DNA of 64,000 nucleotides from a virus (IMGVR_UViG_3300050343_000122:1-64000); one strand, 5' to 3'; shown: positions 17,868-56,750, counted from the stretch's first letter. The notes: generated by a model from the letters alone, not told the origin. A program made the numbers and translations.

Positions 17868-20624
17868 TTATTGTCCTATTTTACCATCACCATTCAGATC
17901 TCTGCCAACAAACTTTTCATAATCTATATTTGTGTTGGGACTTTGTGCTGCTTTAGCTAACTGTTGGTACTGTCTTGAACTCATTTGAGCACCTGGTTCT
18001 ACAAGCAGCTCATATATAATCTCATCAGTGAGTTGACCTAATAAAGGTGCAATTTGTTCTTTTGGAACCATAGAAGGCCATAATATATTTTTAGATATTC
18101 TATCAGATACTGGATCATATATATTAAGTTGTAACCTGTACATTCCATTCTCTGTTTTTGGACTCATGTCACTCACAATATTTCCACTTGCTTTATAATA
18201 TTTAAGTGCTGGGAAGTCACCTGATTCAGAACTTAAGAATGCATTTTCCAAACTTGTTTTATATTTACTGTCTGTGGCTGTAGTAAAATAAGCATTTGGA
18301 TTTCTTCTGAATGATCTTTCTCCATTAGACAATGTAAATTCCTCTAGAGGTTGTCTAGTGTCTATCATTGCAGGTAATATTCTTTGATTGAAAGCTCTGA
18401 CAGCTGGGCTTGGTTCATATCTACCTTGAAAGAATCTTTCATATTGTTGTTGAGTTAAATCTATCTCACTAGGATTACCATCTCCATCCGTTACAATTAA
18501 TTGATACTTACCATCAGCTCCAGCAGTTACAACATTAGCAGATATTATACCTTTTTCAAGAGCAGTTCTAATATCTGAAGCTACACCACCGCCTCCAAAC
18601 ACTCCCTCATCAACATCTCCTTTATCCATGTCAATAGCTATTCCTCCTAGTAAACCATCAAACTCTGCTTTCTGTGCTGTGTTAGTTAGAGGAATAGGAT
18701 AGGCAACTGATTGAGGAATTATATTAGTCTTTCTTAATTCTTCTGCAATAAACTTTTCTCTCTGTTGTGTAAGATTACGTAATGTATTTTGAATAGGTTC
18801 GCTTTCACTAAAAGATATAATGTCATCATATACAGCACTACCAGAATCTTTAGTAACTCCATACAGTATATCTCTATCCATATACCCAGGAGCAAATAGT
18901 TGTTCGAATACAGCCTTCTCCTGTGCAGACAATTCACTCTCTGGACCCATAGCTTTCTTATAATCCCAGCTTTGAATTTCATCAGGGTACTCATCATCTG
19001 AATCTTCATATACATACTGTTGGAACTTATCACTATTAAACATACTAATTAATGATTTGTAGTCAGCAGTGTAAGTAGATGGTATGCCACCATCGTCATA
19101 ATTAATTGTTATTGACTTATTTGCAGCCTTCAGTTGAGGGGGTTCAGGGTATATTTTTAAAGCATCTTCATTAATAGATGTTACTAGATTACTTATTTGT
19201 TTATATTCTGCATCAAGTCTACTTAGAACAGATAGGTCCGATCTTAGATCATCTGGTAGAGATGCAGGATTACTACTATTTCTTGTTATTTCATCCTGTA
19301 ACTGTTTATCAGTGTATCCGTATTTAGTTTTTAATCTTTCACGCTCGGTTATTGTTAGTTGCAGTGCTTCTTCCATAGCAATTTTTCCAGCAGCTGCTAC
19401 TTGCGAATCACTAGCATCATCACCCTGATTAATAGGAACTCCTCCATATGCACCAACTTCAAGTGTAGCATTCTCTTGTTTTTTCAACCTAGCCATTTCT
19501 GCATTATGTCTTTCAGTCTGATAAAACTTAGCATTAAAGTTTGCTTGATCTTGTTGCATCTTAGCAACTTTAAGTTCTGTTTCTCTAAATGGATTACTGT
19601 GAATTGTTTCAGATACATTTTTATAAGAATAAGAATTAGTAAAATTCTTCATCCAATCAGTACTGTATAATTGTCCTTTTGCTGTTTCTACATCACTATT
19701 TAAAAAACTTGAAGACACACTTTCGTATTCTGATTTTAGAGATTCTGCCTGACGTTGAAGAGCATCTATTTGATCCTGAATAGCATTCTTTTCTGCAGCG
19801 GTCTTTGATGAGTCTTGCAAAGCCTCCATGTCTTTTATCTCCTTCTGAAGTCCTAGGAACGTGTTGTTGTATGACTGATTTACATCTTGAGAAAATACTT
19901 CATCATCTATACCATTGTATTTAAACTGTCCATCAATAGCCATTTGCTGATATGCATCTGGTGGAAGAGCAGCTTTTAAAGCAGTTTGAATTTTCTCTGG
20001 AGTAAGAGCTTCTATCTTTCTTCTAGTGACAGCATCATAATATACAACTTTACCTCTTGAGTCTGTAGTTGCATATATATCATTCTGTGTTGAATCAGCA
20101 GCTAAACCTTCTACAACATCCTGAGCCATTTTATTATAGTCTACATAAGGTCTGTATGTTGCATTGAATGTAGAGTTTAAATCTCCCTCCATCCAAGCTT
20201 GTACTTGTTTAGAAAAGAATAAATCATTTGATTGAGACCCTTTTCCTTTACCTGTAATTTCTTGTTGTTGTTCTAATTGTTTTCTATATTTAGCTGCAGA
20301 ACCAACAGCATTTAAAATAACTGGATCATTTACCAATTGTTTAGTCATACCATCAACTGAATTAACAAGTTGAAAGTTTGAGAAATCTGATGCAGCAATA
20401 CTATTGAGCTGTCCTCCTAAAGCATTAAGCTTAGATTGAAGATATTCTTTATCTTGTGGTCTAACTACATCAAGACCAGCAATGTTATCAATGCTGTCCT
20501 GAATCTTTTGTACTCCCTGGTTATATGCTTGTTGCTTGAACAAGCCAACCTTAAGCATTTCATCCTGAGGACGCTGCTCTACATATTCGTTGAAGGTGGG
20601 AATGTTATCTAGATATGATGCCAT
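17868..20624 (-). CDS. Putative injected cargo/core protein
   Basis: 918 aa with a coiled-coil-rich N-half; lies between the muzzle/cargo genes and the vRNAP, as in crAss-like phages. Confidence 0.65.
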   Translation of the reverse strand: MASYLDNIPTFNEYVEQRPQDEMLKVGLFKQQAYNQGVQKIQDSIDNIAGLDVVRPQDKEYLQSKLNALGGQLNSIAASDFSNFQLVNSVDGMTKQLVNDPVILNAVGSAAKYRKQLEQQQEITGKGKGSQSNDLFFSKQVQAWMEGDLNSTFNATYRPYVDYNKMAQDVVEGLAADSTQNDIYATTDSRGKVVYYDAVTRRKIEALTPEKIQTALKAALPPDAYQQMAIDGQFKYNGIDDEVFSQDVNQSYNNTFLGLQKEIKDMEALQDSSKTAAEKNAIQDQIDALQRQAESLKSEYESVSSSFLNSDVETAKGQLYSTDWMKNFTNSYSYKNVSETIHSNPFRETELKVAKMQQDQANFNAKFYQTERHNAEMARLKKQENATLEVGAYGGVPINQGDDASDSQVAAAGKIAMEEALQLTITERERLKTKYGYTDKQLQDEITRNSSNPASLPDDLRSDLSVLSRLDAEYKQISNLVTSINEDALKIYPEPPQLKAANKSITINYDDGGIPSTYTADYKSLISMFNSDKFQQYVYEDSDDEYPDEIQSWDYKKAMGPESELSAQEKAVFEQLFAPGYMDRDILYGVTKDSGSAVYDDIISFSESEPIQNTLRNLTQQREKFIAEELRKTNIIPQSVAYPIPLTNTAQKAEFDGLLGGIAIDMDKGDVDEGVFGGGGVASDIRTALEKGIISANVVTAGADGKYQLIVTDGDGNPSEIDLTQQQYERFFQGRYEPSPAVRAFNQRILPAMIDTRQPLEEFTLSNGERSFRRNPNAYFTTATDSKYKTSLENAFLSSESGDFPALKYYKASGNIVSDMSPKTENGMYRLQLNIYDPVSDRISKNILWPSMVPKEQIAPLLGQLTDEIIYELLVEPGAQMSSRQYQQLAKAAQSPNTNIDYEKFVGRDLNGDGKIGQ

Positions 20625-20631
20625 AATTTAA

Positions 20632-20707
20632 CAAATGTATTATTATTTAAAGACTTATCCAAGATACACTAATCGATTCTGGTAATTCTTTATAATCAGA
20701 TTAGTTA
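20632..20707 (-). promoter_or_regulatory. Bacteroidota-type promoter (-7 TACATTTG at 20632-20639) with upstream tandem operator-like motif (20670-20707)
   Basis: TAnnTTTG consensus. The upstream motif shares the TTCTTTATAA core and its spacing with 38964-39000. Confidence 0.65.
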
Positions 20708-23700
20708 TTGTTTTTTGAATTGTCTTAGTATATTACTATTCCTGTGGTTCTTTTTTACTTTTTTATTGATAGGTTTTAATTTTGTTCCGTACTTTCCAAC
20801 TGCTGTACTTGGATCATTTACATAATCGTATATAGGTTCAGCCCTTGCAGCATCTAACACTTCACCCATTGCGTCTTCATTTATACCTTCATTAGTAGAA
20901 TTAGTAGTTTGTCCACCTCCAAAACCACCACCAGTTAAATAATCAAAGATAGTTTGATACGGTCCAAAAGCAGATGTCTGTCCTTTACCAGGTATATTAA
21001 ACTGTGCCATTCCTTGATTAAATAAATCTAAATCTTCACTAAATCTAAAGTTAGGAAATAGTTCACGTAGAACTTTCTCTCTTCGGTTCTCTAGTTTATT
21101 CTGCTGATACTTATCAGATATAGACTTAACAATTTCTTGCTGTGTTGCTTTTGTATTAGCTACAGCTTGAGCTTGTCTTTGTTGTTGTTGATCATAAATA
21201 CCTAAGTTAGTAAGCCTTGCCTGATTAATCGCCTCAATGTTGCCAGAGTATACTTGATCTTTCATTGCTTGGTTCTGTCTAAACTCTTCAGCACCGACAC
21301 TATTAAGTGCATCAAAGAAAGGAGCTTGTGCAGCAGCTAGAGCTGCAGGATTATTTGCCAGTATAGGATTTTGAGCCATAGCTCTATACTGTGAGTTAAT
21401 TACATTTCTTTGATCCTGCAAACTTATATCGTAAGGAACTCTTAATCTAGGTTGGTATGTCTGTGCATAAACAGGATCAAGTTGATTGTTTGCAGCTGCA
21501 TTTATCTCAGGCAGTATCTGGTTATAATCAAGATCATTGTCTATAGGTCTTCTAAATAAGGGTCTAAGAAAACTTGCATCAAATGGTGTTTTTGGTTTTA
21601 CTGTAGTAGTTTCTGTAGTAGTTGCTTCTTCTTCTACCTCTGCAAATTCATATTCAGCAGGTGCAGCTTCCTTTGATTCTACCTCAGGGGTAAATCTAGC
21701 ACTAGAAGTTTCTTCACCAATAACACCATCTACATTTACTGACACGTTTATACCTGCATCTTTGTTTCTTTTATTAAATTCTCTTTGGAATCTTTTTACA
21801 TCTTCTTTCTTTCTACGATCAAAGTTCTCCCAATCAAACCAAGAGTTTTCTTTTACAAACGCTTCATAATCTGCTTCAGTTACATTACCAGCTAATCCTG
21901 TTTTATCATCATACTTCTGTCCTTTAGGCATATCACCTATATCAGAACCAGTTGCATCTTTACGATCAATTTTTTCTTTTGCTGGTGTCTTTTCCTTCTT
22001 CCACTTTTTCTGCTCTTCATCCCATGTAAAGCCAGCATCTTCAGCTTCTTTTATTGTTTTAAATTTTGTAGGAAGGTTATTTATTTTAAGACCACCTTGG
22101 GCTATAGGTATTTCTGTACCATCTTCAGCATAATCCTGTGTGTCTTTAACAGCTTCTATCTCACCTTTAGATAAGAACTTATTACCATCTATACCACGTT
22201 CATTAAATGTATCATTTAAGGCTGTTTGAAGATCAGCTAACATTTCTTTCTTATTAGCTATATCTTTTAATTTCATGTCACCACCTTGTACAATTGCATC
22301 TGAAGTTGATCTTACCAACTCGCCCCATTTAGTCTTTTGGGTATCTCCAGCATTTTCTACAGCTTTTCCCATTTGTTTATTTATTCTTGCTTCCTCATCA
22401 TTGAGGTTGTTTACATAGTTTTTAAACTTTTTACCTTTTGCATTATCGTCACCTAACTCTGATATAAAATTATTTGGTATTTTTAAATCTCCAAACACTA
22501 CTAAGTTTTCCTGGTTCCCACCGTCTTGCATAATTTGAGCTGGTTCATTTTCTACTTCTACCACTGCTTCATTATTAGCAACGGACTGTGGACCATACGC
22601 AACACCAATACCAGTTTGACCAGTCTTAGGATCTTTTTTATCATGCGAGTTACCAGAGAAATATAAACTTTCTCCCCCAGCATAAGGGTTATAGGATACA
22701 GCATTTACATCTCCACCCCATAGAGTTTTAACATTACCATCACCTGCTACCGATCCACCTTTTTGCATATGAGAAGCATATCCTGCGTGGATTTGAGGAC
22801 CTATCTTCATGTTGTTCATGTCGGAAATATTTGTATTGATAGCATCTCTAGCTATATCTTGTTTATTATCATTAGTGTCTATTAAACCTCCTATACCACT
22901 TCCAATAAAATCACCAATAGCACCACCAAGTGGTCCACCAACAAGCGTACCTATACCTCTACCAACACCACCACCAATATTGCTTCCTGCATCTCTACTA
23001 GCTTTATCTCCATAAAGTGAATTTCCTAACGTGTTTCCTATTGCATCATATGGTACTCCTCCACCATCTTGATACGATTTAACTATGCTAGGATTATTTA
23101 GTGGAACGTATCCTCCATCCTGAAGAGCACGCATGCTATTTACATTTCTTCTATTAAGCATTCTATTATGTTCTAATTTTTCTTTCATAGTTTCGTAGTA
23201 AGGTAGACCATAAGTAAATTCTCCTTTACCAAGAAGGTCATCTCCTTTTAGATTTAAGTTTCTAGGACCTCCAGCTCTAAAGTTATTTAGAAAATTACCA
23301 CCACGTTTAGCAAGTACGTTTGTGCCTACACCATAAATAGGGAAGAACTCTTCGCCTGTGTTCTGAATATCTTCAGGACGAACATAGTCTCTTTCTATTT
23401 CTTCTGGTTTAGTCAGAGCAGCCTGTCGTGCTATTGCACTTACCTCCTGCATTTGTTTAAGATCTTTTAGGGCATCCTTCTGACTTTTTATCTTACTGAT
23501 ACCCATCATGATATCTTTTGTAATAGGACTATTAAGGACTTGACCTAATTCCTCTGATTGTAAAAAGCTTCCCACTTTCTGTCCAAAATTCATAGCAGTT
23601 CCATCCTCATTGTATTGCCCTTTACTAAATGCTTTTCCAAACATACCAGATCCATCAGGATTACCATACTGATCTTGCTGTGGGATCTCAAATCCTAGAT

Positions 23701-24472
23701 CCATACTTTGTATCTGACCCAAACCAGTTTGTGCTTTAGGTGCTTCATGTCCCCAACCTTTTTTCTTAAGTGCTAAGTGCTCTTTGTAAGTCATAGCTTT
23801 CTTACCCTTCTTAGTCTTAGGATCATACATCATGTGTGGTTCAAACTTTTCAACCTTTCCACCTTTTTTAAGCATCTTACCAATTCTTTCAGCTTGGCTC
23901 TTGTGCATATTAGAAGCTTTGTATAACTCACCTTCTATCTTTTTCAATTTATCTTTACTAATTTTAGCACCCTTCTTACCAGCCACCATTCCTATTATTT
24001 CTGCATCACCAACTTCTACAGATCCTGTTGGACCACCTTCGCCTCCACCAAATAAACCACTAAGTCCTTCTAGTGCACCTCCCATGCCTTGTATTTTTCC
24101 TAATAGACCATCATCTTGTTTTTTGTTCATGTTAGCATACATAGCATCTATCTTTGCTTTGTATTCATAATCTTCTTTCTCCTCTTCAGTAGTCAAAGCA
24201 TCAACGCCAAGCTCATAGGCCCTATCTTTAAACTGATCAAAGTAATCCAAAGTATCTTTATTTACACTCTTTAGAAGTTCTGTACCGTCAATAACTTTAC
24301 GGTTATTACCAGCTTCCACATCAGTGTATTCTATAACATCACCTACTGCAGCTTTCTTAAGCTTAGCTAGTTCTTTTCCATGCTTCTTCATAAAAGCTGC
24401 CTCTGTAGGAAACTTCTTGTAGAATTCTTTTTCAGACTTAACGCCTGCTATTTTTAATATTTGAGCTTTCAT
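20705..24472 (-). CDS. Putative injected cargo protein with repeated x-x-GG motifs
   Basis: 1255 aa. Gly-rich hydrophobic segment (GGGVGRGIGTLVGGPLGGAIGDFIGSGIGG), VEVENE motif, Q/N-rich C-terminus and many (A/Q)xGG motifs. Confidence 0.65.
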   Translation of the reverse strand: MKAQILKIAGVKSEKEFYKKFPTEAAFMKKHGKELAKLKKAAVGDVIEYTDVEAGNNRKVIDGTELLKSVNKDTLDYFDQFKDRAYELGVDALTTEEEKEDYEYKAKIDAMYANMNKKQDDGLLGKIQGMGGALEGLSGLFGGGEGGPTGSVEVGDAEIIGMVAGKKGAKISKDKLKKIEGELYKASNMHKSQAERIGKMLKKGGKVEKFEPHMMYDPKTKKGKKAMTYKEHLALKKKGWGHEAPKAQTGLGQIQSMDLGFEIPQQDQYGNPDGSGMFGKAFSKGQYNEDGTAMNFGQKVGSFLQSEELGQVLNSPITKDIMMGISKIKSQKDALKDLKQMQEVSAIARQAALTKPEEIERDYVRPEDIQNTGEEFFPIYGVGTNVLAKRGGNFLNNFRAGGPRNLNLKGDDLLGKGEFTYGLPYYETMKEKLEHNRMLNRRNVNSMRALQDGGYVPLNNPSIVKSYQDGGGVPYDAIGNTLGNSLYGDKASRDAGSNIGGGVGRGIGTLVGGPLGGAIGDFIGSGIGGLIDTNDNKQDIARDAINTNISDMNNMKIGPQIHAGYASHMQKGGSVAGDGNVKTLWGGDVNAVSYNPYAGGESLYFSGNSHDKKDPKTGQTGIGVAYGPQSVANNEAVVEVENEPAQIMQDGGNQENLVVFGDLKIPNNFISELGDDNAKGKKFKNYVNNLNDEEARINKQMGKAVENAGDTQKTKWGELVRSTSDAIVQGGDMKLKDIANKKEMLADLQTALNDTFNERGIDGNKFLSKGEIEAVKDTQDYAEDGTEIPIAQGGLKINNLPTKFKTIKEAEDAGFTWDEEQKKWKKEKTPAKEKIDRKDATGSDIGDMPKGQKYDDKTGLAGNVTEADYEAFVKENSWFDWENFDRRKKEDVKRFQREFNKRNKDAGINVSVNVDGVIGEETSSARFTPEVESKEAAPAEYEFAEVEEEATTTETTTVKPKTPFDASFLRPLFRRPIDNDLDYNQILPEINAAANNQLDPVYAQTYQPRLRVPYDISLQDQRNVINSQYRAMAQNPILANNPAALAAAQAPFFDALNSVGAEEFRQNQAMKDQVYSGNIEAINQARLTNLGIYDQQQQRQAQAVANTKATQQEIVKSISDKYQQNKLENRREKVLRELFPNFRFSEDLDLFNQGMAQFNIPGKGQTSAFGPYQTIFDYLTGGGFGGGQTTNSTNEGINEDAMGEVLDAARAEPIYDYVNDPSTAVGKYGTKLKPINKKVKKNHRNSNILRQFKKQ

Positions 24473-24476
24473 ATTA

Positions 24477-27400
24477 TTAGTATTTGTCTAACCAGCCTCC
24501 TGGTTGTGGTGTATTATAGTTCGTAAAGTTAGTTAATTGATCTAAGCTGACCAAAGATTCTCCCTGCTTTGCATAACCCATGTTAGAAGATTTAGATAAT
24601 TTAGTGTTATCTGATACAGTATTTAAAAGTTCCAGTATCTCCTCATCGTTGTATACCTCTTGCAACTCTCTAAACTGTTCATTATCTTTCATCACTTCCA
24701 TCATGTCAGAGGTTACCTCTGAATCAAAGATGCTAGGCATTCCTTCCTCTTTTCCAATTGGACTAGTTTCATAGAAATATCTAATAGAATTAAGTCTTGC
24801 TCTAGTTTCTGTTGGATCACCTATATAGTTTACCCTGTCTTTAATATCTCCTCTAACTTTTCTAGGTGCATCTAATTTCTTTGTGTCCTTAAGAGTTCTC
24901 TTTCTATATTTATTAATAAGCTTTTGATCACTAGATGGTATAGTTAATCTATTAAACTCAGCACCTGGTGAGAAATCTTGAGCGTGTGACAACTCATGAA
25001 GTACTACATCTTTATCTTGATTACCTATTAGTTTAGGTTCTGATGTATCTAGAAGACTAGAGTTTAATTTAATGTCATGCCTGCTACGATTATATCTACC
25101 TAAGAAGTCATCAGCATGGTCATCAATACTAAAATCAACGTTATCTAAATTGTTTATTCTTTTGTAAGTTAGTCTCTCTATATCTTTTTCATCTCCATCA
25201 AAACTATTACTTAATAGTTCTTGACCTCTTTTAGAATTTGTCCAGTCTTTTAAAAAGTCAACTTGAGGTGAAGTGTCAGGAACTCTGTTTATATATGGAA
25301 AGCTTGATGTCGCTGTTTTAAGTTTAAGTCCATCCTGTGCCATAGGATACTCTGTTACAGAGCTACCATCGTATGTGTAATTCTCAACACCTGGTTGCAT
25401 CATCTTTGTATCACCAGTGTCAGATATTCCAAGTACAGGATAGTTAACACCCTTCATTGTTATATTGTTGGAGTTTATTTTAGTTATCTTTCCTGGGTGT
25501 GCTAATTGTCCTCTATTATCTTCTATCACACCACCTTCTTGAAACTTGTCTAACCATCCACCATCTTGAGCTTTCTGACAACTACCCTTACTAAAAGGTG
25601 TCTTACCAGCAACTGTTTTATATCCTGGCCAACATCTTCCACCATCTCTTTGTTGAGGTATACTACCAATAGCAACAGGTGCTGCTACAGCAGGAAGAAC
25701 TTTAAACAGATTCTTAAATGCTTTTTTATCTTTTATCATTTTAAAGAACCTTACATCCACTGAAGTTTTACCTGCTTTACCTTCCGATATTATTTTATTT
25801 ATCAAGTCATCAGAAACCTCATATTGTTTATCTGTTCCCCAAAACTTTTTAGGTATGTATTCCATTCTTAACTCATCAATCCTTCCAGCAACTTCTTGTG
25901 GTCTAGATAGATATTCTATACTTTCTGTTGTATCATCTCCTAAGTTTTTTATATTTCCATAAACTTTTTGGATATCCTTTTTGTGAGCTCCTGTTAACAC
26001 CTTTGTGTAATCATCTGTTACCTGAGGAACAGCAGATTGAATTGTTCTAGCATATTCAGGCTTAGTAGCTCTTGCACCAATATCCATTGCATGTTTATTT
26101 TCATGTGCAATAGTTCTTGAAAGTTTCCAATTCCTTTGGGATAAATTTGGAAATCTTGATTCAAACCTAGGAAGAGAAATAAGTGACCTATTTTCTGAAG
26201 CTCTAAAGAACCCTAGTGTGTTAGGGTTCTTAGCAAAATAGCTTATATCATCAGCACTTGTAGGTGCCATTACTTTTGTAAATCTACCTGTTGCTCCTAT
26301 TTGATCTACATTCATTCTAGCATTATTAGCGTAGTTAATTTTATTAGCTCCTTCAACTACCTGATCGTTTAACCTTCTTAGTAACATTGCATCATCAGCA
26401 AGTCTTGGGAACATTTTATGTATTGCACTTAAAGGTACACTTAGTTCACCGCTTGGTGTAAATAGCTCTGGTTGTTTTGCTTTTAATTGTTCAAGACCTC
26501 GTTTGTATAAATTTTGATTATTACGAACTTGTCTGGTTAGACCGGGATCATTAAATTGATATGTAAAATCATCAAATCTTGTTTGAAACCCTGGAGCTTT
26601 TTGCCAAGTCTTATTAAAGTCAGCAGCTGCTTTAACACCACTTTCATTAAAACCTCTAAATTTAGATTTAAACGGTCCTCCCTTTAGTAGTCCCATTAAT
26701 TCAGTAAGACCTACCCTAGTGTCTGACAAAGGATTAGTAAGATTATCTACTCCTCTTTTAAGTGATTGTCTTAGTGAAGGTGCTGCTGCATCAACACTTG
26801 CATCTACTAGTCCAGATTGTCCAAGACCTCTATAGTACATGTTTGGTTTGGATTTCAATGCATTCGTAAAAGGTGCCATAAGAGGTTTTTTAAACAAACC
26901 TGCACCTATATATGTTGTGGGATCTGTTGCTATATCAAGAGCGATTGCTCCAACTGGATTCTCAATGTTTAATACTTGAGATGGTGTTCTTTGTGTATCA
27001 AATGTAAGTGCATTTAAAAAGTTGGCATCTCTACCTCTTAGTGCTTGTATACCCTCCACCATAAGCGATTGAGGAACTTGTAATGCAGATAAAGGTTGTT
27101 GCACTAACATACCTGTTACCATATCCCTGGTGTCTTCAGCAAGTCCTCTTTTTGTATAAGCAGCTCTTCTTACACCTCTACCAATCGGACCATCATCATT
27201 AAAGTATTTTCTTTGCTCTGCACTTAAATCATTATAGTAAGGATACTTCTCATAGTCTACCCCTGAGTACATTACTACCTCATCTAGTTGATTAGGAACA
27301 TCAGCAAATGTACCCTCTTCATATGCTTTTTTATATTCAGGAGTGCCATACATAACTGTACCATCCTGAGCTTTCTTAGGTTCTTCAGGAGATGTTCCAG

Positions 27401-27605
27401 ACGTACGTGCATACATCATACCAGATGCACCTGGAAGACTTCCTCCCATAGCAAACTTATCTAACCAACCACCGTTAATTGCTTTCACAGGCGTAGCACC
27501 TCCAGCTATAGCACCGAAGTATTTCTTCTGCTTATCAGTCAGACCTCTCCCATGGACAGTTCCGTCTTCTAAAATCTTTCTCGCTTTACCTGGTGTTAAT
27601 GCCAT
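24477..27605 (-). CDS. Modular cargo-type protein with two zincin-like HExxH metallopeptidase domains
   Basis: 1042 aa. HENKH (26091-26105) with downstream YLSRPQEVAGR; HELSH (24984-24998) with downstream YIGDPTETRAR; GGWLDK occurs three times. Confidence 0.7.
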   Translation of the reverse strand: MALTPGKARKILEDGTVHGRGLTDKQKKYFGAIAGGATPVKAINGGWLDKFAMGGSLPGASGMMYARTSGTSPEEPKKAQDGTVMYGTPEYKKAYEEGTFADVPNQLDEVVMYSGVDYEKYPYYNDLSAEQRKYFNDDGPIGRGVRRAAYTKRGLAEDTRDMVTGMLVQQPLSALQVPQSLMVEGIQALRGRDANFLNALTFDTQRTPSQVLNIENPVGAIALDIATDPTTYIGAGLFKKPLMAPFTNALKSKPNMYYRGLGQSGLVDASVDAAAPSLRQSLKRGVDNLTNPLSDTRVGLTELMGLLKGGPFKSKFRGFNESGVKAAADFNKTWQKAPGFQTRFDDFTYQFNDPGLTRQVRNNQNLYKRGLEQLKAKQPELFTPSGELSVPLSAIHKMFPRLADDAMLLRRLNDQVVEGANKINYANNARMNVDQIGATGRFTKVMAPTSADDISYFAKNPNTLGFFRASENRSLISLPRFESRFPNLSQRNWKLSRTIAHENKHAMDIGARATKPEYARTIQSAVPQVTDDYTKVLTGAHKKDIQKVYGNIKNLGDDTTESIEYLSRPQEVAGRIDELRMEYIPKKFWGTDKQYEVSDDLINKIISEGKAGKTSVDVRFFKMIKDKKAFKNLFKVLPAVAAPVAIGSIPQQRDGGRCWPGYKTVAGKTPFSKGSCQKAQDGGWLDKFQEGGVIEDNRGQLAHPGKITKINSNNITMKGVNYPVLGISDTGDTKMMQPGVENYTYDGSSVTEYPMAQDGLKLKTATSSFPYINRVPDTSPQVDFLKDWTNSKRGQELLSNSFDGDEKDIERLTYKRINNLDNVDFSIDDHADDFLGRYNRSRHDIKLNSSLLDTSEPKLIGNQDKDVVLHELSHAQDFSPGAEFNRLTIPSSDQKLINKYRKRTLKDTKKLDAPRKVRGDIKDRVNYIGDPTETRARLNSIRYFYETSPIGKEEGMPSIFDSEVTSDMMEVMKDNEQFRELQEVYNDEEILELLNTVSDNTKLSKSSNMGYAKQGESLVSLDQLTNFTNYNTPQPGGWLDKY

Positions 27606-28471
27606 TACTTATATGATATTTGTGCTGGTGCTACAATAAATTGACTAACTATGTGTGTAGTAGATGTATTATCTAATATATGTCTTACCTTTAAATCCTT
27701 TGCTCTAAGTTGTGACTTCTTAAATGATAGGTCACCATAGTTCATGTTATCTTGATTTACCTCCTTATCCAAAGATAGTGATGTACACGGTGTTTCAAAT
27801 AAAGGAACATTACTACTTTTTTGTAATGCCCAAAAAGTATTATACTGATAAAAGTTATCACTTTTAGTGAATACAATCGTCTTACTGTCACTATTTAATA
27901 TAGGATATTGTAAGTATGAACTTAGATCATTCATAGGTTTAGGTACAAGTTCTAGTATACCTGTTGATTGTTGTCCGTTATATAATACAGCTTTATTAAA
28001 GTATTTATTATCTGTCTGAACTTTACTGTTGTCATCAAATGCCCCAACAGTAGAAGGTATATATGTATATGTCTTACTATAATCTTTTATGTTCTGTACT
28101 ATTTGATCATTATACTTGTAATCAAATGGATACTCAATGATGTAAGGAGAAATGTCCCCATAGTAATAGTTATATAAACTATCGTTTCTCAAGTGAGTCC
28201 ACAAACATCCTGTTCTTTTAGGAACAAATTTAGAATTTCTATAATCAAATCCATTTATCTTTCCTTGAACATCAAAAGATTTTACAAACTCGCAGTCCCC
28301 TGTTGAGGTTAGCGTAATAACTCTCACTGCATTTTGTACATCATAGGACACACCTGTTATTAATGTAAACAAAGATACGCCTGTAGCTATAGTATTACCT
28401 AAGTCATCAGTGATTGTAAACGGTCCTACGTTAGGACTAGCAGATGTTATTTTTATACTTATTGTTTTCAT
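27605..28471 (-). CDS. GPF domain fused to the probable C-terminal part of the tail stabilization (muzzle) protein
   Basis: 288 aa. N-terminal SASPNVGPF...ITLTSTGDC domain, followed by LWTHL..YNYYYG..PYIIEYPF...FNKAVLYNGQQSTG. Confidence 0.6.
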   Translation of the reverse strand: MKTISIKITSASPNVGPFTITDDLGNTIATGVSLFTLITGVSYDVQNAVRVITLTSTGDCEFVKSFDVQGKINGFDYRNSKFVPKRTGCLWTHLRNDSLYNYYYGDISPYIIEYPFDYKYNDQIVQNIKDYSKTYTYIPSTVGAFDDNSKVQTDNKYFNKAVLYNGQQSTGILELVPKPMNDLSSYLQYPILNSDSKTIVFTKSDNFYQYNTFWALQKSSNVPLFETPCTSLSLDKEVNQDNMNYGDLSFKKSQLRAKDLKVRHILDNTSTTHIVSQFIVAPAQISYK

Positions 28472-43188: not shown

Positions 43189-46100
43189 CTATGGTGATGT
43201 TTGTGTTACGCTTAGAGAAATAGCACCTGTTCCTGTTACAAAAAAGTTTCCAGCTACTGGACCTATTAATGTTTCAGCAGCTCCAGTATCGGTATCAGTA
43301 AAACTAGTAAATCCACTAACTTGAAGACCACTTGCTGTTAAAGTGCAGTTTTGTCCTGGGTTACTTGATTTATAAGTTGCTTGTAGATCATAATTCTTTC
43401 CGTTTACTAAAGTAAAGTTGTAAGTTCCATTACTGTTTGGATCAGCAGGATAACTCTCTGAAACATTACCGTCTTCACCATCAAAAGATACAAACTGAAC
43501 TCCGTCTCCAGGATCTTCAAAGTCTATTATAAGGCTTGCAGGTGCAGTTGCAGTAGTAATAGTATCATAAAGCCAAACACTATTACTTACACCTGTTTGA
43601 GTCCAGTTGGGAAAGACAAATGTATAGTCACTAGATGCAGATACAAGACTTGTATCGAATTGCGTTGGTTGAACACTAGTGGTTAGTTTGTGTTCAACAA
43701 AAGTAGTATCGCTTGATAAATTTTCAGTTGTCATTGATGCACTAATAACGTCACCTACTGCTGTCATTATAACACCACCGTCTGATGAATTAGTTGTGTT
43801 TATATTAGAATTTACAACTGTTGTACCATTAATTACTATCTTAAGATTCGCACTCCTAAATAGACTTGATCCACTTGGGTTAGAGTCTCCAGTAAACACC
43901 CAATTCCATGCATACGATTTAGGATCAGGAGTTGTACTTGTAGTAGTTGTACTACTTGTACTTGTTGTTGTAGAAGTACTTGTAGAAGTACTTGTGGACG
44001 TACTAGTAGTACTTGTACTTGTGGATGTACTTGTACTTGTGCTTGTGCTAGTAGAACTACTTGTAGTAGTGGTAGTAGGCACAGGAGTAGTAGTTGTTGT
44101 TGTTGTAGGTATAGGTGTGGTAGTACTAGTAGTTGTACTAGAAGTGCTAGTAGAACTACTTGTAGTAGTAGTGGTTGATCCACAATCTCCATATGCAGTA
44201 ACTTTATAACCATCTCCAGTTGTATGATCAAAGGTAGAAAGTATTGATGATAAGTCATTACCATTTGCATCTATCTTTGAAAATTGGAATGCACTTGTAC
44301 CTGATAACGGACCTGAAGCAGCGTTAGTGCTAACTTTACCATAAGGAACAGTAACTGCTCCAACTCCAACATCAAGAAGTTGATACACTGCTGTATAGTC
44401 TACTCCTCCTATATTAAATACTACATCATAGTTGGTATTTGGAACTTGAGACCAGTTGGTATAACTTGTTGTGTTTGTAGTTGGTCCAACGAAAGATGAT
44501 CGAACATATAGAGAGGGGGTATTCACACCTACAGGACTTGGTGGGTCTGTATACCAGAAGTTATTATCTGTAGTAGTTAAATAGTCAAACTCTAGACATC
44601 CAACTAGTGGTGTAATAGTTGTTGTTGTAGTTGTAGTACTAGAAGTGCTCGTAGAAGTGCTAGTGGACGTGCTAGTAGATGTACTAGTTGAACTACTTGT
44701 TGTAGTAGTAGTTGGTACAGGGGTAGTAGTACTAGTAGTTGTACTAGAAGTACTTGTACTGGTACTGGTACTGGTACTTGTACTAGACGAACTTGTTGTA
44801 GTTGTTGTTAGCTGATCATCTGGACATAAATAAAAATCAAGAAGGCAACCTGCTAACTTATCTCCTACATGTGTAAATATTAGTTCATTAATTCTATCAC
44901 CATTGTTTCTAGGAAATATATTAAATAAAGCACGAGCTGGTTGATCTCCTGAATTCAACTTTGCTTTAAATATCACACTACCATCTGTCTCATTAGAAAC
45001 TATAAAACTATCAGGATTTTCTCTACATACCTGTATAAATGATATATTAAGATCTACGTCAGATGTTACTCTCACTGTTTCATATATTCCTGGATTAGGA
45101 TAATACCCTATACCAGTACAGTAAAATGCCATAGATGATATTGAGTTATCAAATGACATTGTAGATGAAGCACACTTTCCACCACCTAGAGCATATGTAC
45201 CCTGATTATTATATTGATTATTGTGGAAACCTTGTAGTTCACAATCTGGATCAGTTCCATTATTTGCAAGAAGTTGCGAAGAAGAACTTGGAACATATGT
45301 TGTCTCACAATCAGCGTTATCAGATGATAATGTCAGTACAAATCCATTACTTAATGTTTTAACTCCATTTCCAGTGCTTATTCCTGGGAATCCCTCTGGA
45401 GCATCAAAGTTATAAGGTTGGCTACAGTTACCTGAAATAGGAGCTGAACTAGTGGTGGTGGTGGTGGTTTCAGAACCACAGTTATTTTCTAAACTACCTG
45501 TAAATCCTACTTGCCAGTACGCTTCACTTTCACAATATATTATTTTCTGGTCACTTTGTCCATCTATAGTTATATACTCAATTGTATCTGGATCTACTAG
45601 TGGACCAGGAGTAACAAACTGCTGTATACCCATTTGTTCTGCAACCATATCTATTCTACAGGCATAACCATATAGATAACAACCAGCTGCCACCTGAGCT
45701 CCACCAGCATAACATAGTCCTATTATCTTGATAGTTCCCTCTATATCTGCGAGGAGGAGTGATCCTGAATCTCCTGAATATATAGGATTACAACAATATT
45801 CTGTTGTACTCGCATTATCAGGATCTTCTTGAGGAGGTTTAATAAATCTAATAGCATCAGTAAACTTACAATTTACACTAGTTGCTTGTGAACTAGGATA
45901 AGCTATATTTTCAAGCGTAGCATTTATTGATTGAATTAACATAGGACAATCTGGTACAATACCTTTAGGTCCAGTAGTTCTTCCAGTACTATATACACGA
46001 GGGTTTGTAGCTAATATATTATCTATTTCTAATGTAGAAGCAAACGGTGGTGGATTACTACCTAGTATAGACTCTAGTCCTACTTGATTCCATGCAATTG

Positions 46101-46779
46101 TTGGATCCCATCTTGTCGGATCAATGGAAATTATAGCTGCATCTACCTGATTAAATAAACCTGTAGACTTTGCATGAATAGGAACATACTGTAAACTTAC
46201 ACCACAGTTATAACTTGCAGGTGTGGATGCACTTCCAAATTCTCCTTGTTGGTATACATAATCTACTGGACTATATTCATTTACAAGAGCTCCAGTAACA
46301 CTTCTATCAGATGTATAAAATGCATCTTGAATAGTAACGTGATTATTTGTTAAACCAACTGAACAGCCTGTTTCTGAATGTATAACTACACCTCCAAGAG
46401 TACCTACACTAGTTCCATTATTTCTACTAGAAAAAGAAATACCACCTTGTAAATGTTGAAAGAACTGTCTGTTTGCTAGTGAAGTGTTATTTGTTTGTCC
46501 ACAAGTTGAAGAACACGTACCTATAATTTCATGCTTCGCTATTTCTATTACATCTGTTTTTATACTTTTTCCAGATACTATAACACGTGATGGAATATGT
46601 TCATTTATTGAAATCTCAGAAAGAGGCTTCTTTTTTTCTACAGCTATAACTATAGCAAAGTCACCTGTCCACGTTCCATTAACAACTTTTCTTCCCCAAG
46701 CAACACTAGTTACATTAGGAAGTTGCTGAGACAACTCTAATATTCTATCTTTTATTTCTTGTGTTAATAGTCCTTTCAT
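43189..46779 (-). CDS. Chymotrypsin-like (S1, Nal1-type) serine protease fused to Thr/Ser linkers and beta-sandwich modules
   Basis: GTLGG, LTNNHV (His 46339-46341), VDAAII (Asp 46141-46143) and GDSGS (Ser 45766-45768); N-terminal prodomain-like region; long Thr/Ser tracts. Confidence 0.85.
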   Translation of the reverse strand: MKGLLTQEIKDRILELSQQLPNVTSVAWGRKVVNGTWTGDFAIVIAVEKKKPLSEISINEHIPSRVIVSGKSIKTDVIEIAKHEIIGTCSSTCGQTNNTSLANRQFFQHLQGGISFSSRNNGTSVGTLGGVVIHSETGCSVGLTNNHVTIQDAFYTSDRSVTGALVNEYSPVDYVYQQGEFGSASTPASYNCGVSLQYVPIHAKSTGLFNQVDAAIISIDPTRWDPTIAWNQVGLESILGSNPPPFASTLEIDNILATNPRVYSTGRTTGPKGIVPDCPMLIQSINATLENIAYPSSQATSVNCKFTDAIRFIKPPQEDPDNASTTEYCCNPIYSGDSGSLLLADIEGTIKIIGLCYAGGAQVAAGCYLYGYACRIDMVAEQMGIQQFVTPGPLVDPDTIEYITIDGQSDQKIIYCESEAYWQVGFTGSLENNCGSETTTTTTSSAPISGNCSQPYNFDAPEGFPGISTGNGVKTLSNGFVLTLSSDNADCETTYVPSSSSQLLANNGTDPDCELQGFHNNQYNNQGTYALGGGKCASSTMSFDNSISSMAFYCTGIGYYPNPGIYETVRVTSDVDLNISFIQVCRENPDSFIVSNETDGSVIFKAKLNSGDQPARALFNIFPRNNGDRINELIFTHVGDKLAGCLLDFYLCPDDQLTTTTTSSSSTSTSTSTSTSTSSTTTSTTTPVPTTTTTSSSTSTSTSTSTSTSTSTSSTTTTTTTITPLVGCLEFDYLTTTDNNFWYTDPPSPVGVNTPSLYVRSSFVGPTTNTTSYTNWSQVPNTNYDVVFNIGGVDYTAVYQLLDVGVGAVTVPYGKVSTNAASGPLSGTSAFQFSKIDANGNDLSSILSTFDHTTGDGYKVTAYGDCGSTTTTTSSSTSTSSTTTSTTTPIPTTTTTTTPVPTTTTTSSSTSTSTSTSTSTSTSTTSTSTSTSTSTSTTTSTSSTTTTSTTPDPKSYAWNWVFTGDSNPSGSSLFRSANLKIVINGTTVVNSNINTTNSSDGGVIMTAVGDVISASMTTENLSSDTTFVEHKLTTSVQPTQFDTSLVSASSDYTFVFPNWTQTGVSNSVWLYDTITTATAPASLIIDFEDPGDGVQFVSFDGEDGNVSESYPADPNSNGTYNFTLVNGKNYDLQATYKSSNPGQNCTLTASGLQVSGFTSFTDTDTGAAETLIGPVAGNFFVTGTGAISLSVTQTSP
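43930..44176 (-). repeat. Low-complexity Thr/Ser-coding tract (ACT/ACA/AGT repeats)
   Basis: Encodes an ~80-residue T/S/P linker that is a near-duplicate of the 44610-44810 tract. Confidence 0.9.
44610..44810 (-). repeat. Low-complexity Thr/Ser-coding tract
   Basis: Encodes TTTTTSSSSTSTSTS...TTTPVPTTTTTSSSTSTS... Confidence 0.9.
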
Positions 46780-55184: not shown

Positions 55185-56750
55185 TTAGAACTGTGGAATT
55201 TCTTCAATAAGTACAGTTCTTGATAAATCCTCGATAAATACATCGCATCTATCTTTCATCCAGATTTCGTATCCTGGGAATTTATTAGCAGACTGCATTC
55301 CTTGAGACTTAGCAAAGCCTAGGTGGGAACGAGTTCCGTCAATATAACCCCAAGTCATAGAAGGAGCACCCTTCATACGAACTTCTCGGATGTTGTTTAC
55401 CATTGCACCATCAGATAGTGGAGAAACATCAAACACCATAAATACTGGAGTAGATTTCATGTTTTGTCCAAACTCTAAATTAGTTTGTGGTAAATCAAGT
55501 TCTTTCAAGTGAATTAATTCAACTCGACCTGTCTCTCTTGTAACCATTGCATCGAATGCAAAGTTATAAGTGATATTTTGTCCTTCTCCTTGCATGTATC
55601 TGTTTCCAGAATCTGCAACGAAAGTAAGACCTGAATTAAGTGCATCGTCTTTAAGAGCTTGTTGGAATACATCGAATCCAGCCTCATTAGTATACATCTT
55701 AACTCGTCTATCTTTAACATCCACTCGTCTATAGAACAAGTCTCCAAATACTGAACGAATCAGGTTTGCAGAGAACTCACCTCTATTGTATTGTACTAAG
55801 TTTCCGTTATTTCTCATTCTGTGGTATACACCAGCAGAAGTTCTTTTTAAGTTTTGTTGTGAACCATTAGTTTTAACAGTACCTGGAGAAGCCCAGATCA
55901 TTCTTTTAACTTTTAGTTCTAGCATAGACTTACGCATCCAGAACTCAATAAATGGCTCCCACTTAACATCTTCTCTTCTTAAAGGAAGTTGATTACGTCT
56001 TTGTGGAGCATATACTAAGATATCCAGTGGCTTACCAGCAGAATCACGCAACATTTTGTCATCAGCCCATTCTGTAATTTTGTGCTCATATCCATATGCA
56101 GAACCTAGTGATTCAAACATAGTGATTTCTTCACCTAATTTAGGAAGGCCTAATAGATCTTGATCAAATTCACCGATAGCAGCATCTACTAATTCTAATT
56201 CAACACCTTGTGTTAAGAATGTAGGATTAACAAAGTCTACAATTGGATTATCACTTACTAGTGTGAATTTGTAAATCCATCCCATGTTCCATGGTTGTGG
56301 ATCTTTAATTACGTAGAAACGTGGTCCATATTGACGTGTTCCTACAGAGATGATAGCATTCTTGGAGAATTCGTTAGAACTTAAGATAAGCTCAAACTCT
56401 TGTCCATCAACACCAACTTTACCTCCAGCATCAATCACATCTTGTGTAGATTTTGGAATGTCAATAATTTTAGGGAATTTGTAAGGAACTGCGATATTCC
56501 ATTTCCATGCATCGCTGTTATTATCAATAAAGTAAGGTGTACTCTTATTGATCATGTCTAGAAAATCATTGCTATACAATGAAGATTGAGTATACAGACT
56601 GATAATCTTTTTATCATAGTCTGCAGGCTCAGTAGAGTGAAAAGACTCTAGGTGGTTTGCATCTGTAAGTTTACCTACAGCACGTGCGTCCATAGACGCT
56701 ACACGAGCATAAGTAAAACCAGTTAAACCTGGGATTGTTTGAATTGCCAT
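55185..56750 (-). CDS. Major capsid protein (crAss-like, HK97 fold)
   Basis: 521 aa; follows the portal and the acidic scaffold-like gene; MYTNEAGFDVFQQA and VFIEDLSRTVLIE motifs. Confidence 0.88.
   Translation of the reverse strand: MAIQTIPGLTGFTYARVASMDARAVGKLTDANHLESFHSTEPADYDKKIISLYTQSSLYSNDFLDMINKSTPYFIDNNSDAWKWNIAVPYKFPKIIDIPKSTQDVIDAGGKVGVDGQEFELILSSNEFSKNAIISVGTRQYGPRFYVIKDPQPWNMGWIYKFTLVSDNPIVDFVNPTFLTQGVELELVDAAIGEFDQDLLGLPKLGEEITMFESLGSAYGYEHKITEWADDKMLRDSAGKPLDILVYAPQRRNQLPLRREDVKWEPFIEFWMRKSMLELKVKRMIWASPGTVKTNGSQQNLKRTSAGVYHRMRNNGNLVQYNRGEFSANLIRSVFGDLFYRRVDVKDRRVKMYTNEAGFDVFQQALKDDALNSGLTFVADSGNRYMQGEGQNITYNFAFDAMVTRETGRVELIHLKELDLPQTNLEFGQNMKSTPVFMVFDVSPLSDGAMVNNIREVRMKGAPSMTWGYIDGTRSHLGFAKSQGMQSANKFPGYEIWMKDRCDVFIEDLSRTVLIEEIPQF

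What the first reader, a model, noticed from the sequence alone, without database searches (positions are those of the whole stretch)
20705..27605. Two cargo proteins punctuated by ~20 (K/Y/M/F)-A/Q-x-G(G) motifs: possible polyproteins cut into small effectors
Seen in 24477..27605: KAINGG, KFAMGG, KAQDG, QRDGG, KAQDGG, KFQEGG, MAQDG and YAKQG. Seen in 20705..24472: KAAVG, LKKGG, KAQTG, AKRGG, FRAGG, LQDGG, YQDGG, MQKGG, MQDGG, YAEDG and IAQGG. The motifs bracket discrete mini-modules, such as CWPGYKTVAGKTPFSKGSC, FEPHMMYDPKTKKGKKAMTYKEHLALKKKGWGH and each HExxH domain. Established: GG-X sites are cleavage signals in some viral core polyproteins such as ASFV pp220. Inference: these motifs are maturation sites or capsid-targeting signals that let the phage package a variable cassette of injected peptides.
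Basis: partly seen in the sequence, partly recalled or inferred. Interest (0 to 1): 0.7.

Follow-up and report, generated by a model that had tools for sequence, protein, structure and literature searches.

The report
Junction tags in crass-phage cargo proteins
Two large proteins that this marine crAss-like phage most likely carries in its particle and injects are strings of swappable modules whose joints carry short conserved glycine-ending peptides; the motif is real and modules are gained and lost exactly there, but nothing shows that the joints are cut, and several checks favour uncut connectors and docking handles.

Summary
Observation confirmed. All 19 listed strings are present. A stricter motif occurs 13 times in the two ORFs, against 0.5 expected from shuffles and 5 in the other ~34,000 residues of this complete 113.5-kb genome.

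The genes follow the crassvirus ring and muzzle genes. The 1255-aa protein is a remote homologue of crassvirus cargo protein C1 (gp45). The 1042-aa protein is a ~105-130-aa frame (WLDKY handle, small beta domain, MA[QK]xG joint, tail ending GGWLDKY) loaded with cassettes, including two zincin-like modules. The frame profile finds 4,088 representative proteins of 126-1,827 aa.

Homology between relatives breaks exactly at the final Gly of the joint. All joints of the 1042-aa protein lie in low-confidence linkers. Synonymous codons vary, so the peptide is what is conserved.

Cutting is not shown:
- A 98%-complete relative keeps the motifs with no HExxH anywhere.
- Another relative lacks the serine-protease-like domain.
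- No C5, C48 or C39 peptidase is encoded.
- In phage crAss001 the GGWL..GG element lies inside a continuously modelled cryo-EM domain.

Best reading: uncut standard joints plus docking handles. A polyprotein remains possible (~0.3). I found no published description. This scan has noted and followed up the same motif system on other DNA several times, and the cut-or-uncut question was left open there too.

The parts
24477..27605 (-). P0002, 1042 aa: frame-and-cassette cargo protein. It sits between the 288-aa gene and the C1-like gene.
27474..27605 (-). P0002 residues 1-44: conserved N-terminal mini-domain, clade-specific
27441..27473 (-). P0002 residues 45-55: handle 1, GGWLDKF followed by AMGG
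27360..27374 (-). P0002 residues 78-82: KAQDG joint. Homologue coverage drops here.
25695..26648 (-). P0002 residues 320-637: zincin-like module 1 (H501-E502-x-x-H505, conserved in at least 90% of the alignment), pLDDT about 90
25575..25652 (-). P0002 residues 652-677: QRDGG joint plus the Cys hairpin mini-module CWPGYK...SKGSC. The same module occurs in P0001-family proteins.
25530..25574 (-). P0002 residues 678-692: KAQDG-GWLDKF-QEGG, composite joint plus handle 2, where the frame starts
25344..25529 (-). P0002 residues 693-754: frame beta domain (I710, G719 and P723 invariant)
25329..25343 (-). P0002 residues 755-759: MAQDG joint, the insertion point of the frame
24576..25328 (-). P0002 residues 760-1010: inserted zincin-like module 2 (HELSH 870). 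Absent in frame-only relatives.
24477..24575 (-). P0002 residues 1011-1042 plus the stop codon: YAKQG joint, LDQLTNFTNYNTPQP tail and the terminal handle GGWLDKY
20705..24472 (-). P0001, 1255 aa: remote homologue of crassvirus cargo protein C1 (gp45). Length-stable family.
24341..24472 (-). P0001 residues 1-44: the most conserved stretch of the protein. It ends in KKA[AQ]VG, with G44 invariant.
23858..23968 (-). P0001 residues 169-205: optional helical mini-module KISKDKL...RIGKMLKKGG between duplicated KKGG joints. The same module sits at the 781 joint in relatives.
23723..23857 (-). P0001 residues 206-250: FEPHMMYDPKT... mini-module ending in PKAQTG (pLDDT 79-84)
23111..23296 (-). P0001 residues 393-454: optional inserted mini-module between AKRGG and LQDGG. 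Absent in about 77% of aligned relatives.
22868..22993 (-). P0001 residues 494-535: glycine-zipper stretch that aligns with the gp45 N-terminal Gly-rich or transmembrane region
22373..22726 (-). P0001 residues 583-700: G-N-S-H...T-G-I-G-V...LKIP region aligned to the portal-bound domain of gp45. It includes MQDGG 648-652.
22091..22132 (-). P0001 residues 781-794: double joint YAEDG-TEI-PIAQGG. This is an insertion hotspot that holds 20-60-aa modules in relatives.

Best explanation
The two ORFs are the first virion cargo (ejected) proteins of a complete 113.5-kb marine crass-like phage.

Shown:
- They lie directly after the crassvirus ring and muzzle genes.
- P0001 is a remote homologue of cargo protein C1 (gp45).
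- P0002 is a small frame carrying inserted cassettes. The frame is a WLDKY handle, a beta domain of about 62 aa, an MA[QK]xG joint, and a tail ending in GGWLDKY.
- The cassettes here are an N-terminal mini-domain, two zincin-like modules and a Cys hairpin.
- Each joint carries a short peptide of the types hydrophobic-x-x-G-G or (P)KAQxG.
- The joints sit in disordered linkers. They are conserved as peptide rather than as DNA. They are the exact points where modules are gained, lost and moved, including between the two proteins.

Inferred mechanism:
- The joints are standard, uncut connectors. They let any cassette be spliced in frame, and let the string unfold and thread module by module through portal and tail.
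- The three WLDKY handles and the beta domain dock the frame inside the particle, so that whatever is inserted is packaged and injected with it.
- The zincin and other modules are payload, not the processing enzyme.

The stated confidence is for the whole reading including the inferred 'uncut' part; the frame-and-cassette anatomy alone I hold at about 0.85.
For: Context:
- Pfam CrAss_Ring_1, CrAss_Ring_2 and crAss_MUZ hit the upstream genes.
- Gene order is conserved in 32 + 58 related loci.
- P0001 against the gp45 family by hhalign: probability 90.8%, E 1.2e-6, 574 columns. Atlas feature hit to a crAss_CARG1 cluster, 0.91.

Frame:
- Natural 105-132-aa forms consist of the frame alone.
- The frame profile finds 4,088 representatives. 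Of 116 new top hits, 115 end in W-L-x-x-Y.
- Handle copy number is about 3 whatever the length, whereas AQxG joints scale with length (rho 0.54, p 8e-10).

Joints:
- Homology breaks pile up on the last Gly.
- Insert and no-insert forms differ exactly at PMA[QK]xG.
- P0001-family mini-modules come and go between duplicated joints, and some occur at different joints or in both proteins.
- Joints lie in linkers with pLDDT below 50.
- Synonymous codons vary among copies.

Against cutting:
- Relative G001 (98% complete) has no HExxH in 87 ORFs but 11 junction motifs.
- G005 lacks the serine-protease-like domain.
- 72 of 116 frame proteins lack HExxH.
- No C5, C48 or C39 peptidase.
- In crAss001 gp45, A425-FGGWLNTQGG opens the continuously modelled portal-bound segment 425-552 (PMC10172136).
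Against: - A plain hinge does not explain why K-A-Q and the residue before x-x-G-G are so well conserved across hundreds of unrelated joints. Some common partner, a protease or a receptor, is implied and none is identified.
- No direct evidence exists that either protein is in the virion or full length. There is no cultured close relative.
- Docking of the handles is inferred from a single cryo-EM statement about a distant homologue. I could not inspect the coordinates.
- Phage head proteases that trim packaged proteins at short motifs are well known. An unrecognised or host protease cannot be excluded.
- The frame beta domain shows no similarity to the C1 portal-binding domain.
- My strict regex did not scale with length in the wider clade of 38 loci (rho 0.19, p 0.25).
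Confidence: 0.5

Rival explanations
1. Polyprotein: the joints are recognition sites of a protease. Candidates are the zincin modules in cis or trans, the serine-protease-like N-domain of the 1196-aa structural protein, an unrecognised phage enzyme, or a host enzyme. The protease would cut the cargo proteins into free modules inside the head or after injection.
For: - The motif is short, high-copy, peptide-level conserved and sits in disordered linkers, like the sites of adenovirus, ASFV and phiKZ-type head proteases (established knowledge).
- Zincin 1 of P0002 keeps HExxH in at least 90% of close relatives.
- Iyer et al. 2017 predict processing of polyvalent proteins by their metallopeptidase domains, and P1 DdrB is processed.
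- Modules occur in any order and in several bays.
- In crAss001, gp45 parts lie on both sides of the portal, with two joints (AFAEGG 259, IAKDGG 369) between them.
Against: - No protease co-occurs with the motif. G001 has no HExxH at all. G005 lacks the serine-protease-like domain. 62% of frame proteins lack HExxH.
- No C5, C48 or C39 family in the genome.
- The GGWL..QGG element of gp45 is uncut in the solved virion (PMC10172136).
- N4 virion RNA polymerase with such a peptidase domain is packaged unprocessed.
- crAss001 gp45 is reported as a 90.8-kDa virion protein and no processing is mentioned.
Confidence: 0.3
2. Pure loading or condensation tags: the many joints are multivalent short linear motifs. 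They would bind a repeated site inside the procapsid (portal wing, ring or muzzle lumen, capsid wall, or another cargo domain), and their main role would be to recruit and pack the cargo. Under this rival they do not act as connectors.
For: - Strong conservation of specific side chains in disordered segments.
- Motifs are confined to cargo-slot genes in every genome checked.
- Highly conserved N-terminal peptides end in a joint.
- gp45 contacts portal, tail barrel and probably muzzle through short segments.
Against: - No receptor is identified.
- Copy number of AQxG joints follows the number of modules rather than any fixed stoichiometry.
- The motif sits exactly at indel boundaries, which a mere binding tag need not do.
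Confidence: 0.15
3. DNA-level recombination signal only: the motif is the translation of a short conserved nucleotide box that promotes cassette exchange, and the peptide has no role.
For: - Breakpoints of homology coincide with the motif.
- The motif is duplicated around inserts.
Against: - Copies use different synonymous codons at Ala, Gln, Gly, Lys and Asp, close to background usage.
- The joint is kept in all 55 relatives that have no insert at that site.
- Joint residues are among the invariant columns of a family at 50% identity.
Confidence: 0.04
4. Chance or low-complexity artefact of Gly- and Lys-rich proteins.
For:
Against: - Shuffles that keep composition give 0.5 against 13 observed.
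- Positions are conserved in homologues and coincide with domain borders.
Confidence: 0.01

Closest known systems
Cargo protein C1 (gp45) of Bacteroides phage crAss001 and gut Crassvirales (Bayfield et al. 2023, PMC10172136; Pfam PF25725 crAss_CARG1)
   Same: - Gene slot behind the muzzle gene.
- Profile-profile similarity of P0001 over 574 columns, covering the Gly zipper, the G-x-S-H...I-G-V domain and the C-terminal region.
- Gut C1 proteins also carry hydrophobic-x-x-G-G joints in front of optional mini-modules, and a GGWLxxxGG element.
   Different: - The Pfam model itself does not match.
- P0001 is about 400 aa longer.
- An extra, highly variable frame-and-cassette gene (P0002) and a 288-aa gene stand between the muzzle gene and the C1-like gene.
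- The published work does not mention the joints.
Polyvalent proteins of phages and conjugative elements (Iyer, Burroughs, Anand, de Souza, Aravind 2017, PMC5512222)
   Same: - Several unrelated enzyme-like domains in one phage polypeptide.
- Zincin-like HExxH modules as the commonest domain.
- Relatives with ART-PolyVal and Peptidase_M91.
- Extreme variability of architecture.
- Predicted delivery with the DNA.
   Different: - Here the cassettes sit in a defined small frame, with conserved handles at both ends and a standard peptide at each joint.
- That paper has no mention of linkers or of glycine.
- No Pfam polyvalent-metallopeptidase model matches P0002.
MuF-type and other polymorphic toxin or effector systems, with a conserved delivery part, a junction motif and a variable cassette. 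Examples are CdiA VENN, Rhs PxxxxDPxGL and phage MuF toxins (my own knowledge).
   Same: - A conserved delivery scaffold.
- A short peptide motif that demarcates exchangeable payload.
   Different: - Those systems have one C-terminal payload. Here there are several bays and up to eight joints.
- There is no sequence similarity. This resemblance was recalled, not tested.
Gly-Gly-X processing of virion polyproteins: adenovirus AVP, ASFV pS273R on pp220 and pp62, poxvirus I7
   Same: - A short motif ending in Gly-Gly, present many times in packaged core proteins.
   Different: - The defining clan CE cysteine protease is absent.
- The hydrophobic residue sits one position further from GG.
- Many joints end in a single Gly after AQx.

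Membership tests
Crassvirus cargo protein C1 (gp45; Pfam PF25725 crAss_CARG1) | Match to the Pfam model above its cut-off (27 bits) | tested here: not met
   No hit for P0001 or P0002 at E<=0.1. No hit in six frames of the whole genome at E<=10.
Crassvirus cargo protein C1 (gp45; Pfam PF25725 crAss_CARG1) | Detectable homology to gp45-family sequences | tested here: met
   hhalign of the P0001-family alignment against eight gut C1 proteins: probability 90.8%, E 1.2e-6, 574 columns. Atlas feature search of residues 560-780: crAss_CARG1 cluster, score 0.91. A single-sequence HMM search gave only weak hits.
Crassvirus cargo protein C1 (gp45; Pfam PF25725 crAss_CARG1) | Gene located behind ring and muzzle genes and before the giant RNA-polymerase-associated genes | tested here: met
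   CrAss_Ring_1, CrAss_Ring_2 and crAss_MUZ lie upstream. Two extra genes lie in between. The order is conserved in about 90 loci.
Crassvirus cargo protein C1 (gp45; Pfam PF25725 crAss_CARG1) | Present in virions, bound to the portal wing | not testable with these tools
   No cultured relative. The AlphaFold model of this region has pLDDT 25-36.
Polyvalent proteins (Iyer et al. 2017) | Two or more unrelated effector or enzyme domains in one phage polypeptide, with highly variable architectures among relatives | tested here: met
   Two zincin-like modules plus others here. Relatives have 0-4 HExxH modules, ART-PolyVal or M91. Lengths range from 374 to 1827 aa.
Polyvalent proteins (Iyer et al. 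2017) | Zincin-like metallopeptidase domain (HExxH plus a distal Glu, zincin fold) | tested here: inconclusive
   HENKH and HELSH are present. Residues 772-999 align to M13 gluzincins (Z 8.3, rmsd 4.8, 190 aligned) and to the lethal-factor catalytic lobe (Z 7.0, rmsd 3.8, 134 aligned). Pfam gives only SprT-like, E 0.004, below its cut-off.
Polyvalent proteins (Iyer et al. 2017) | Autoproteolytic processing by the metallopeptidase domain | not testable with these tools
   Indirect evidence speaks against it being needed. The motifs persist without any HExxH.
Gly-Gly-X virion polyprotein processing (adenain / ASFV pS273R / Ulp1-like, clan CE) | Virus-encoded clan CE cysteine protease | tested here: not met
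   Peptidase_C5 and Peptidase_C48 models: no match in six frames of the complete genome at E<=1. Also no Peptidase_C39.
Gly-Gly-X virion polyprotein processing (adenain / ASFV pS273R / Ulp1-like, clan CE) | Demonstrated cleavage after Gly-Gly in virion proteins | not testable with these tools
   Needs proteomics. The only structural datum (crAss001 gp45 residues 425-552, continuous through GGWLNTQGG) argues against cleavage at that element (PMC10172136).

The most novel reading that the evidence does not exclude
The joint peptides are the recognition code of an unrecognised maturation system shared by marine and gut crassviruses. One form would be a so-far unidentified protease that cuts the cargo proteins into dozens of free small effectors inside the head or in the host. 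The other would be a multivalent docking code that loads any tagged cassette into the particle. Under the first form, phages would run a true polyprotein strategy for injected proteins. That could also explain why parts of gp45 lie on both sides of the portal in crAss001.
Probability: 0.3. Interest if true: 0.8.

Novelty: new variant of a known kind. Interest (0 to 1): 0.55.

Why it matters
Crassviruses are among the most abundant phages in the gut and the sea, and they carry megadaltons of protein that is injected ahead of the DNA. How that cargo is chosen, packed and diversified is unknown.

This work points to a small frame protein with standard joints and terminal handles, found in thousands of protein clusters and accepting unrelated cassettes. 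That would be a simple rule for how these phages evolve and load their injected arsenal. It also gives a handle for finding new anti-defence or host-takeover modules: cut the proteins at the joints and treat each piece as a unit.

The cut-or-uncut question can now be tested on a cultured phage, because crAss001 gp45 carries the same joints at known positions.

Tried and rejected
- PDB sequence searches with P0001, P0002 and the P0001 profile found nothing.
- PHROGs gave no family for either protein.
- tblastn of P0002 against cultured phages found no match. The beta domain gave only a marginal hit, E 0.05, in Leptolyngbya phage Lbo-JY46.
- Foldseek with whole models gave no match at E<=0.001. 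There were weak lethal-factor-like rows for P0002 and only coiled-coil rows for P0001.
- VIA-align on P0001 gave only generic helical hairpins, Z at most 8.1. That model is low confidence (mean pLDDT 46).
- P0002 against crAss001 gp45 by hhalign: no similarity.
- P0001 against gp46 (C2): none.
- Frame beta domain against the C1 portal-binding domain or against P0001: none (probability 2.3% and 0.3%). I dropped the idea that the beta domain is a paralogue of the C1 portal binder.
- An automatic indel-block test on the P0001 family was noisy. Five of 8 left flanks end in a loose motif against a 19% background, but the right ends were mis-set by alignment ambiguity. I rely on the by-eye blocks.
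- My strict joint regex did not correlate with length in the wider set of 38 loci. It did so in two other sets.
- Spontaneous Asn-Gly or Asp-Gly chemistry as the meaning of the motif was considered and dropped, because the x position also holds E, T, G, K, L and F.
The smallest frame gene seen in the proper slot is 229-254 aa.
- A literature search for the motif strings found nothing relevant.
Full report
**What is there.**
The window is 64 kb of a complete 113,502-bp phage genome with direct terminal repeats. On the minus strand the gene order is:
- terminase, portal and major capsid protein;
- two genes matching Pfam CrAss_Ring_2 and CrAss_Ring_1;
- a 2261-aa gene matching crAss_MUZ, E 2e-33;
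- a 288-aa gene;
- the two ORFs of the finding: P0002 (24477-27605, 1042 aa) and P0001 (20705-24472, 1255 aa);
- a 918-aa gene and giant ORFs of 4176 and 1615 aa.

This is the layout of phage crAss001, where gp45 and gp46 behind the muzzle gene are the cargo proteins C1 and C2. No close cultured relative exists in the phage collection.

All 19 strings, the two mini-modules and both HExxH sites are present. I defined a stricter pattern after looking at the data.
- It occurs 7 + 6 times, against 0.41 + 0.13 in 5000 composition-preserving shuffles.
- That is 5.66 per 1000 residues, against 0.15 in the other ~34,000 residues of the proteome.
- GGWLxK[YF] occurs three times in P0002 and nowhere else.
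- Motif copies use different synonymous codons, within the gene and across 21 related genes. So the peptide, not a DNA box, is what is kept.

**P0002 is a frame with cassettes.**
Its family (345 hits) shows high identity over very different fractions of the query. The shared pieces are the N-terminus, a beta-rich piece of about 62 aa preceded by GGWLDK[YF]-x-x-GG, and a tail ending in LDQLTNFTNYNTPQPGGWLDKY.

Fifty-five relatives read ...SVTEYPMAKDGKSLVELDQLTNFTNY... Relatives with one to three extra modules read PMAQxG, then the module(s), then [MY]AK[QD]G-SLV... The insertions therefore sit exactly in the joint, and the joint is duplicated. Alignment A5 shows the window's residues 760-1010 as one clean insertion into a frame that also exists alone as 105-132-aa proteins.

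Breakpoint statistics from all-against-all BLAST of 120 relatives:
- 17-27% of internal alignment ends lie within -6..+10 of a joint start, against about 4% in circular-shift controls.
- The peak is on the final Gly.
- The commonest breakpoint contexts, found without using the motif, are ...PMAKDG|...LDKFQNGG|...PKAQLG| and |KNGGWLSKYE.
- These sequences are related to one another, so the counts are not independent events.

The AlphaFold model (mean pLDDT 67) has folded parts at 1-37, 120-160, 320-637, 662-678, 693-755 and 778-999. All ten motif instances lie in or abut the intervening segments with pLDDT below 50. Residues 772-999 align with the catalytic lobe of M13 gluzincins (Z 8.3, rmsd 4.8, 190 aligned). 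That level is suggestive only. Pfam sees only a sub-threshold SprT-like match.

The frame gene always lies between the ~288-aa gene and the C1-like gene. It ranges from 229 to 1701 aa in 58 further loci and from 374 to 1584 aa in the first 32. A profile of the frame finds 4,088 representative proteins at E<=0.001 (957 at 1e-30) among 1.84 billion. Among 116 new top hits:
- lengths run from 175 to 1827 aa;
- 115 end in W-L-x-x-Y plus at most three residues;
- 39 begin with the handle;
- only 44 contain HExxH;
- joint count follows length (rho 0.45, p 5e-7).

In the close family the handle count is about 3 in 84 of 110 proteins whatever the length, while AQxG joints rise from 3.0 to 5.4 (rho 0.54, p 8e-10). 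So there are two motif classes: fixed handles and per-module joints.

**P0001 is a C1 homologue with mini-cassettes.**
Its family is uniform in length, with full-length similarity down to 40% identity. At nearly every listed motif, however, relatives differ by modules of 20-70 aa lying between duplicated joints. These sites are 165-205, 246, 388-454, 467, 568 and 781-794.
- The helical module KLKKIEGELHKASKMHKSQAERIGKM occurs at two different joints.
- The Cys hairpin RCWPGY...SKGSC and one further module occur in both protein families.
- Joint residues (K465, F467, G470, G471, S567, G572, G573, P245, K246) are among the best conserved columns in otherwise disordered stretches.

The Pfam C1 model does not match. 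A profile-profile comparison with eight gut C1 proteins gives probability 90.8% and E 1.2e-6 over 574 columns, and the protein atlas points the same way. The gut C1 proteins themselves carry TFAEGG, LYEDGG or IAKDGG-type joints in front of optional modules. DAC15 has the KGKFTAY module twice and cr106 lacks the DFAGP module. The system therefore reaches cultured crassviruses.

**Cut or not cut?**
Nothing here shows cleavage. Five checks speak against a dedicated phage protease.
1. The only HExxH motifs in this genome are the two in P0002. A 98%-complete relative has none in 87 ORFs yet keeps 5 + 6 joints and three handles.
2. The serine-protease-like N-domain of the 1196-aa structural protein (PHROG 'protease') is present in that relative. 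It is not detected in another 98%-complete one that also keeps the motifs.
3. No Peptidase_C5, C48 or C39 model matches the genome.
4. In crAss001 the modelled portal-bound segment of gp45 is residues 425-552 (PMC10172136). It begins A425-F-G-G-W-L-N-T-Q-G-G. That handle-plus-GG element is therefore inside one continuous chain in the virion.
5. The crAss001 paper reports gp45 as a 90.8-kDa virion protein and mentions no protease.

On the other side, a mere hinge does not explain the conserved side chains. Head proteases that trim packaged proteins are common. Two gp45 joints also lie between the tail-barrel helix (214-245) and the portal-bound domain, which a cut would neatly explain.

I therefore commit to uncut standard joints plus docking handles at about 0.5, and keep the polyprotein reading at about 0.3.

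**Compared with what is known.**
The nearest concepts are crassvirus cargo proteins and the polyvalent proteins of Iyer et al. 2017. That paper does not mention linkers or glycine motifs, and no paper in the library holds the motif strings in this sense.

This scan has met the same system repeatedly on other DNA, and several follow-up reports reached the same open question. One of them gave me the lead to PF25725, which I tested. New here, as far as I can tell:
- the definition of the minimal frame and its size range;
- the separation of handles from joints by copy-number behaviour;
- the absence of any co-occurring protease in complete relatives;
- the placement of the handle at the start of the solved portal-bound domain.

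Noticed in passing
window 27605-28471 (-): A 288-aa gene whose stop overlaps the start of the frame gene (shared base 27605). It is conserved at 287-295 aa and abuts the frame gene (gap 0) in most of the ~90 related loci where a neighbour was held. It has no Pfam or PHROG match. It is a candidate partner or receptor of the frame protein.
   Followed up: partly
window 23723-23857 (-), P0001 residues 206-250: The mini-module FEPHMMYDPKTKKGKKAMTYKEHLALKKKGWGH is nearly invariant across the family and is the best-predicted piece of P0001 (pLDDT 79-84). Its function is unknown.
   Followed up: partly
window 21692-21952 (-), P0001 residues 841-927: This stretch matches 'virion structural protein' genes of Cellulophaga phages phi4:1 and phi17:2 (37.9% over 87 aa, E 2e-8). 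It looks like a peptidoglycan-binding repeat by eye (VDGxxGxxT). Pfam gives no hit.
   Followed up: partly
whole genome (G000): HExxH occurs only twice in all 96 ORFs, both times in P0002. In crAss001 the single HExxH among the tail and cargo proteins gp43-gp50 that I checked is in gp47, at residue 2157.
   Followed up: yes
loci L053-L105 (e.g. L054:5881-6600): Many frame proteins of the wider clade start with a Cys-rich peptide, MSSGKVKCTCGWSWN, instead of the WLDxY handle. This was seen in 23 of 116 representatives. It may be a zinc-ribbon-like N-terminal cassette.
   Followed up: no
window 17868-20624 (-): A 918-aa gene follows the C1-like gene in all related loci (788-957 aa) and is free of junction motifs. 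By position it is a candidate counterpart of cargo protein C2. I did not compare it with gp46.
   Followed up: no
window 43189-46779 (-): The N-terminal ~260 aa match PHROG 20754 'protease' (E 8.5e-12) but no Pfam family. A homologue is present in relative G001 (47% identity). None is detected in G005.
   Followed up: partly
window 55185-56750 (-): The nearest cultured relative of the major capsid protein is Leptolyngbya phage Lbo-JY46, at 25.6% identity. This lineage has no close cultured representative in the phage collection.
   Followed up: no
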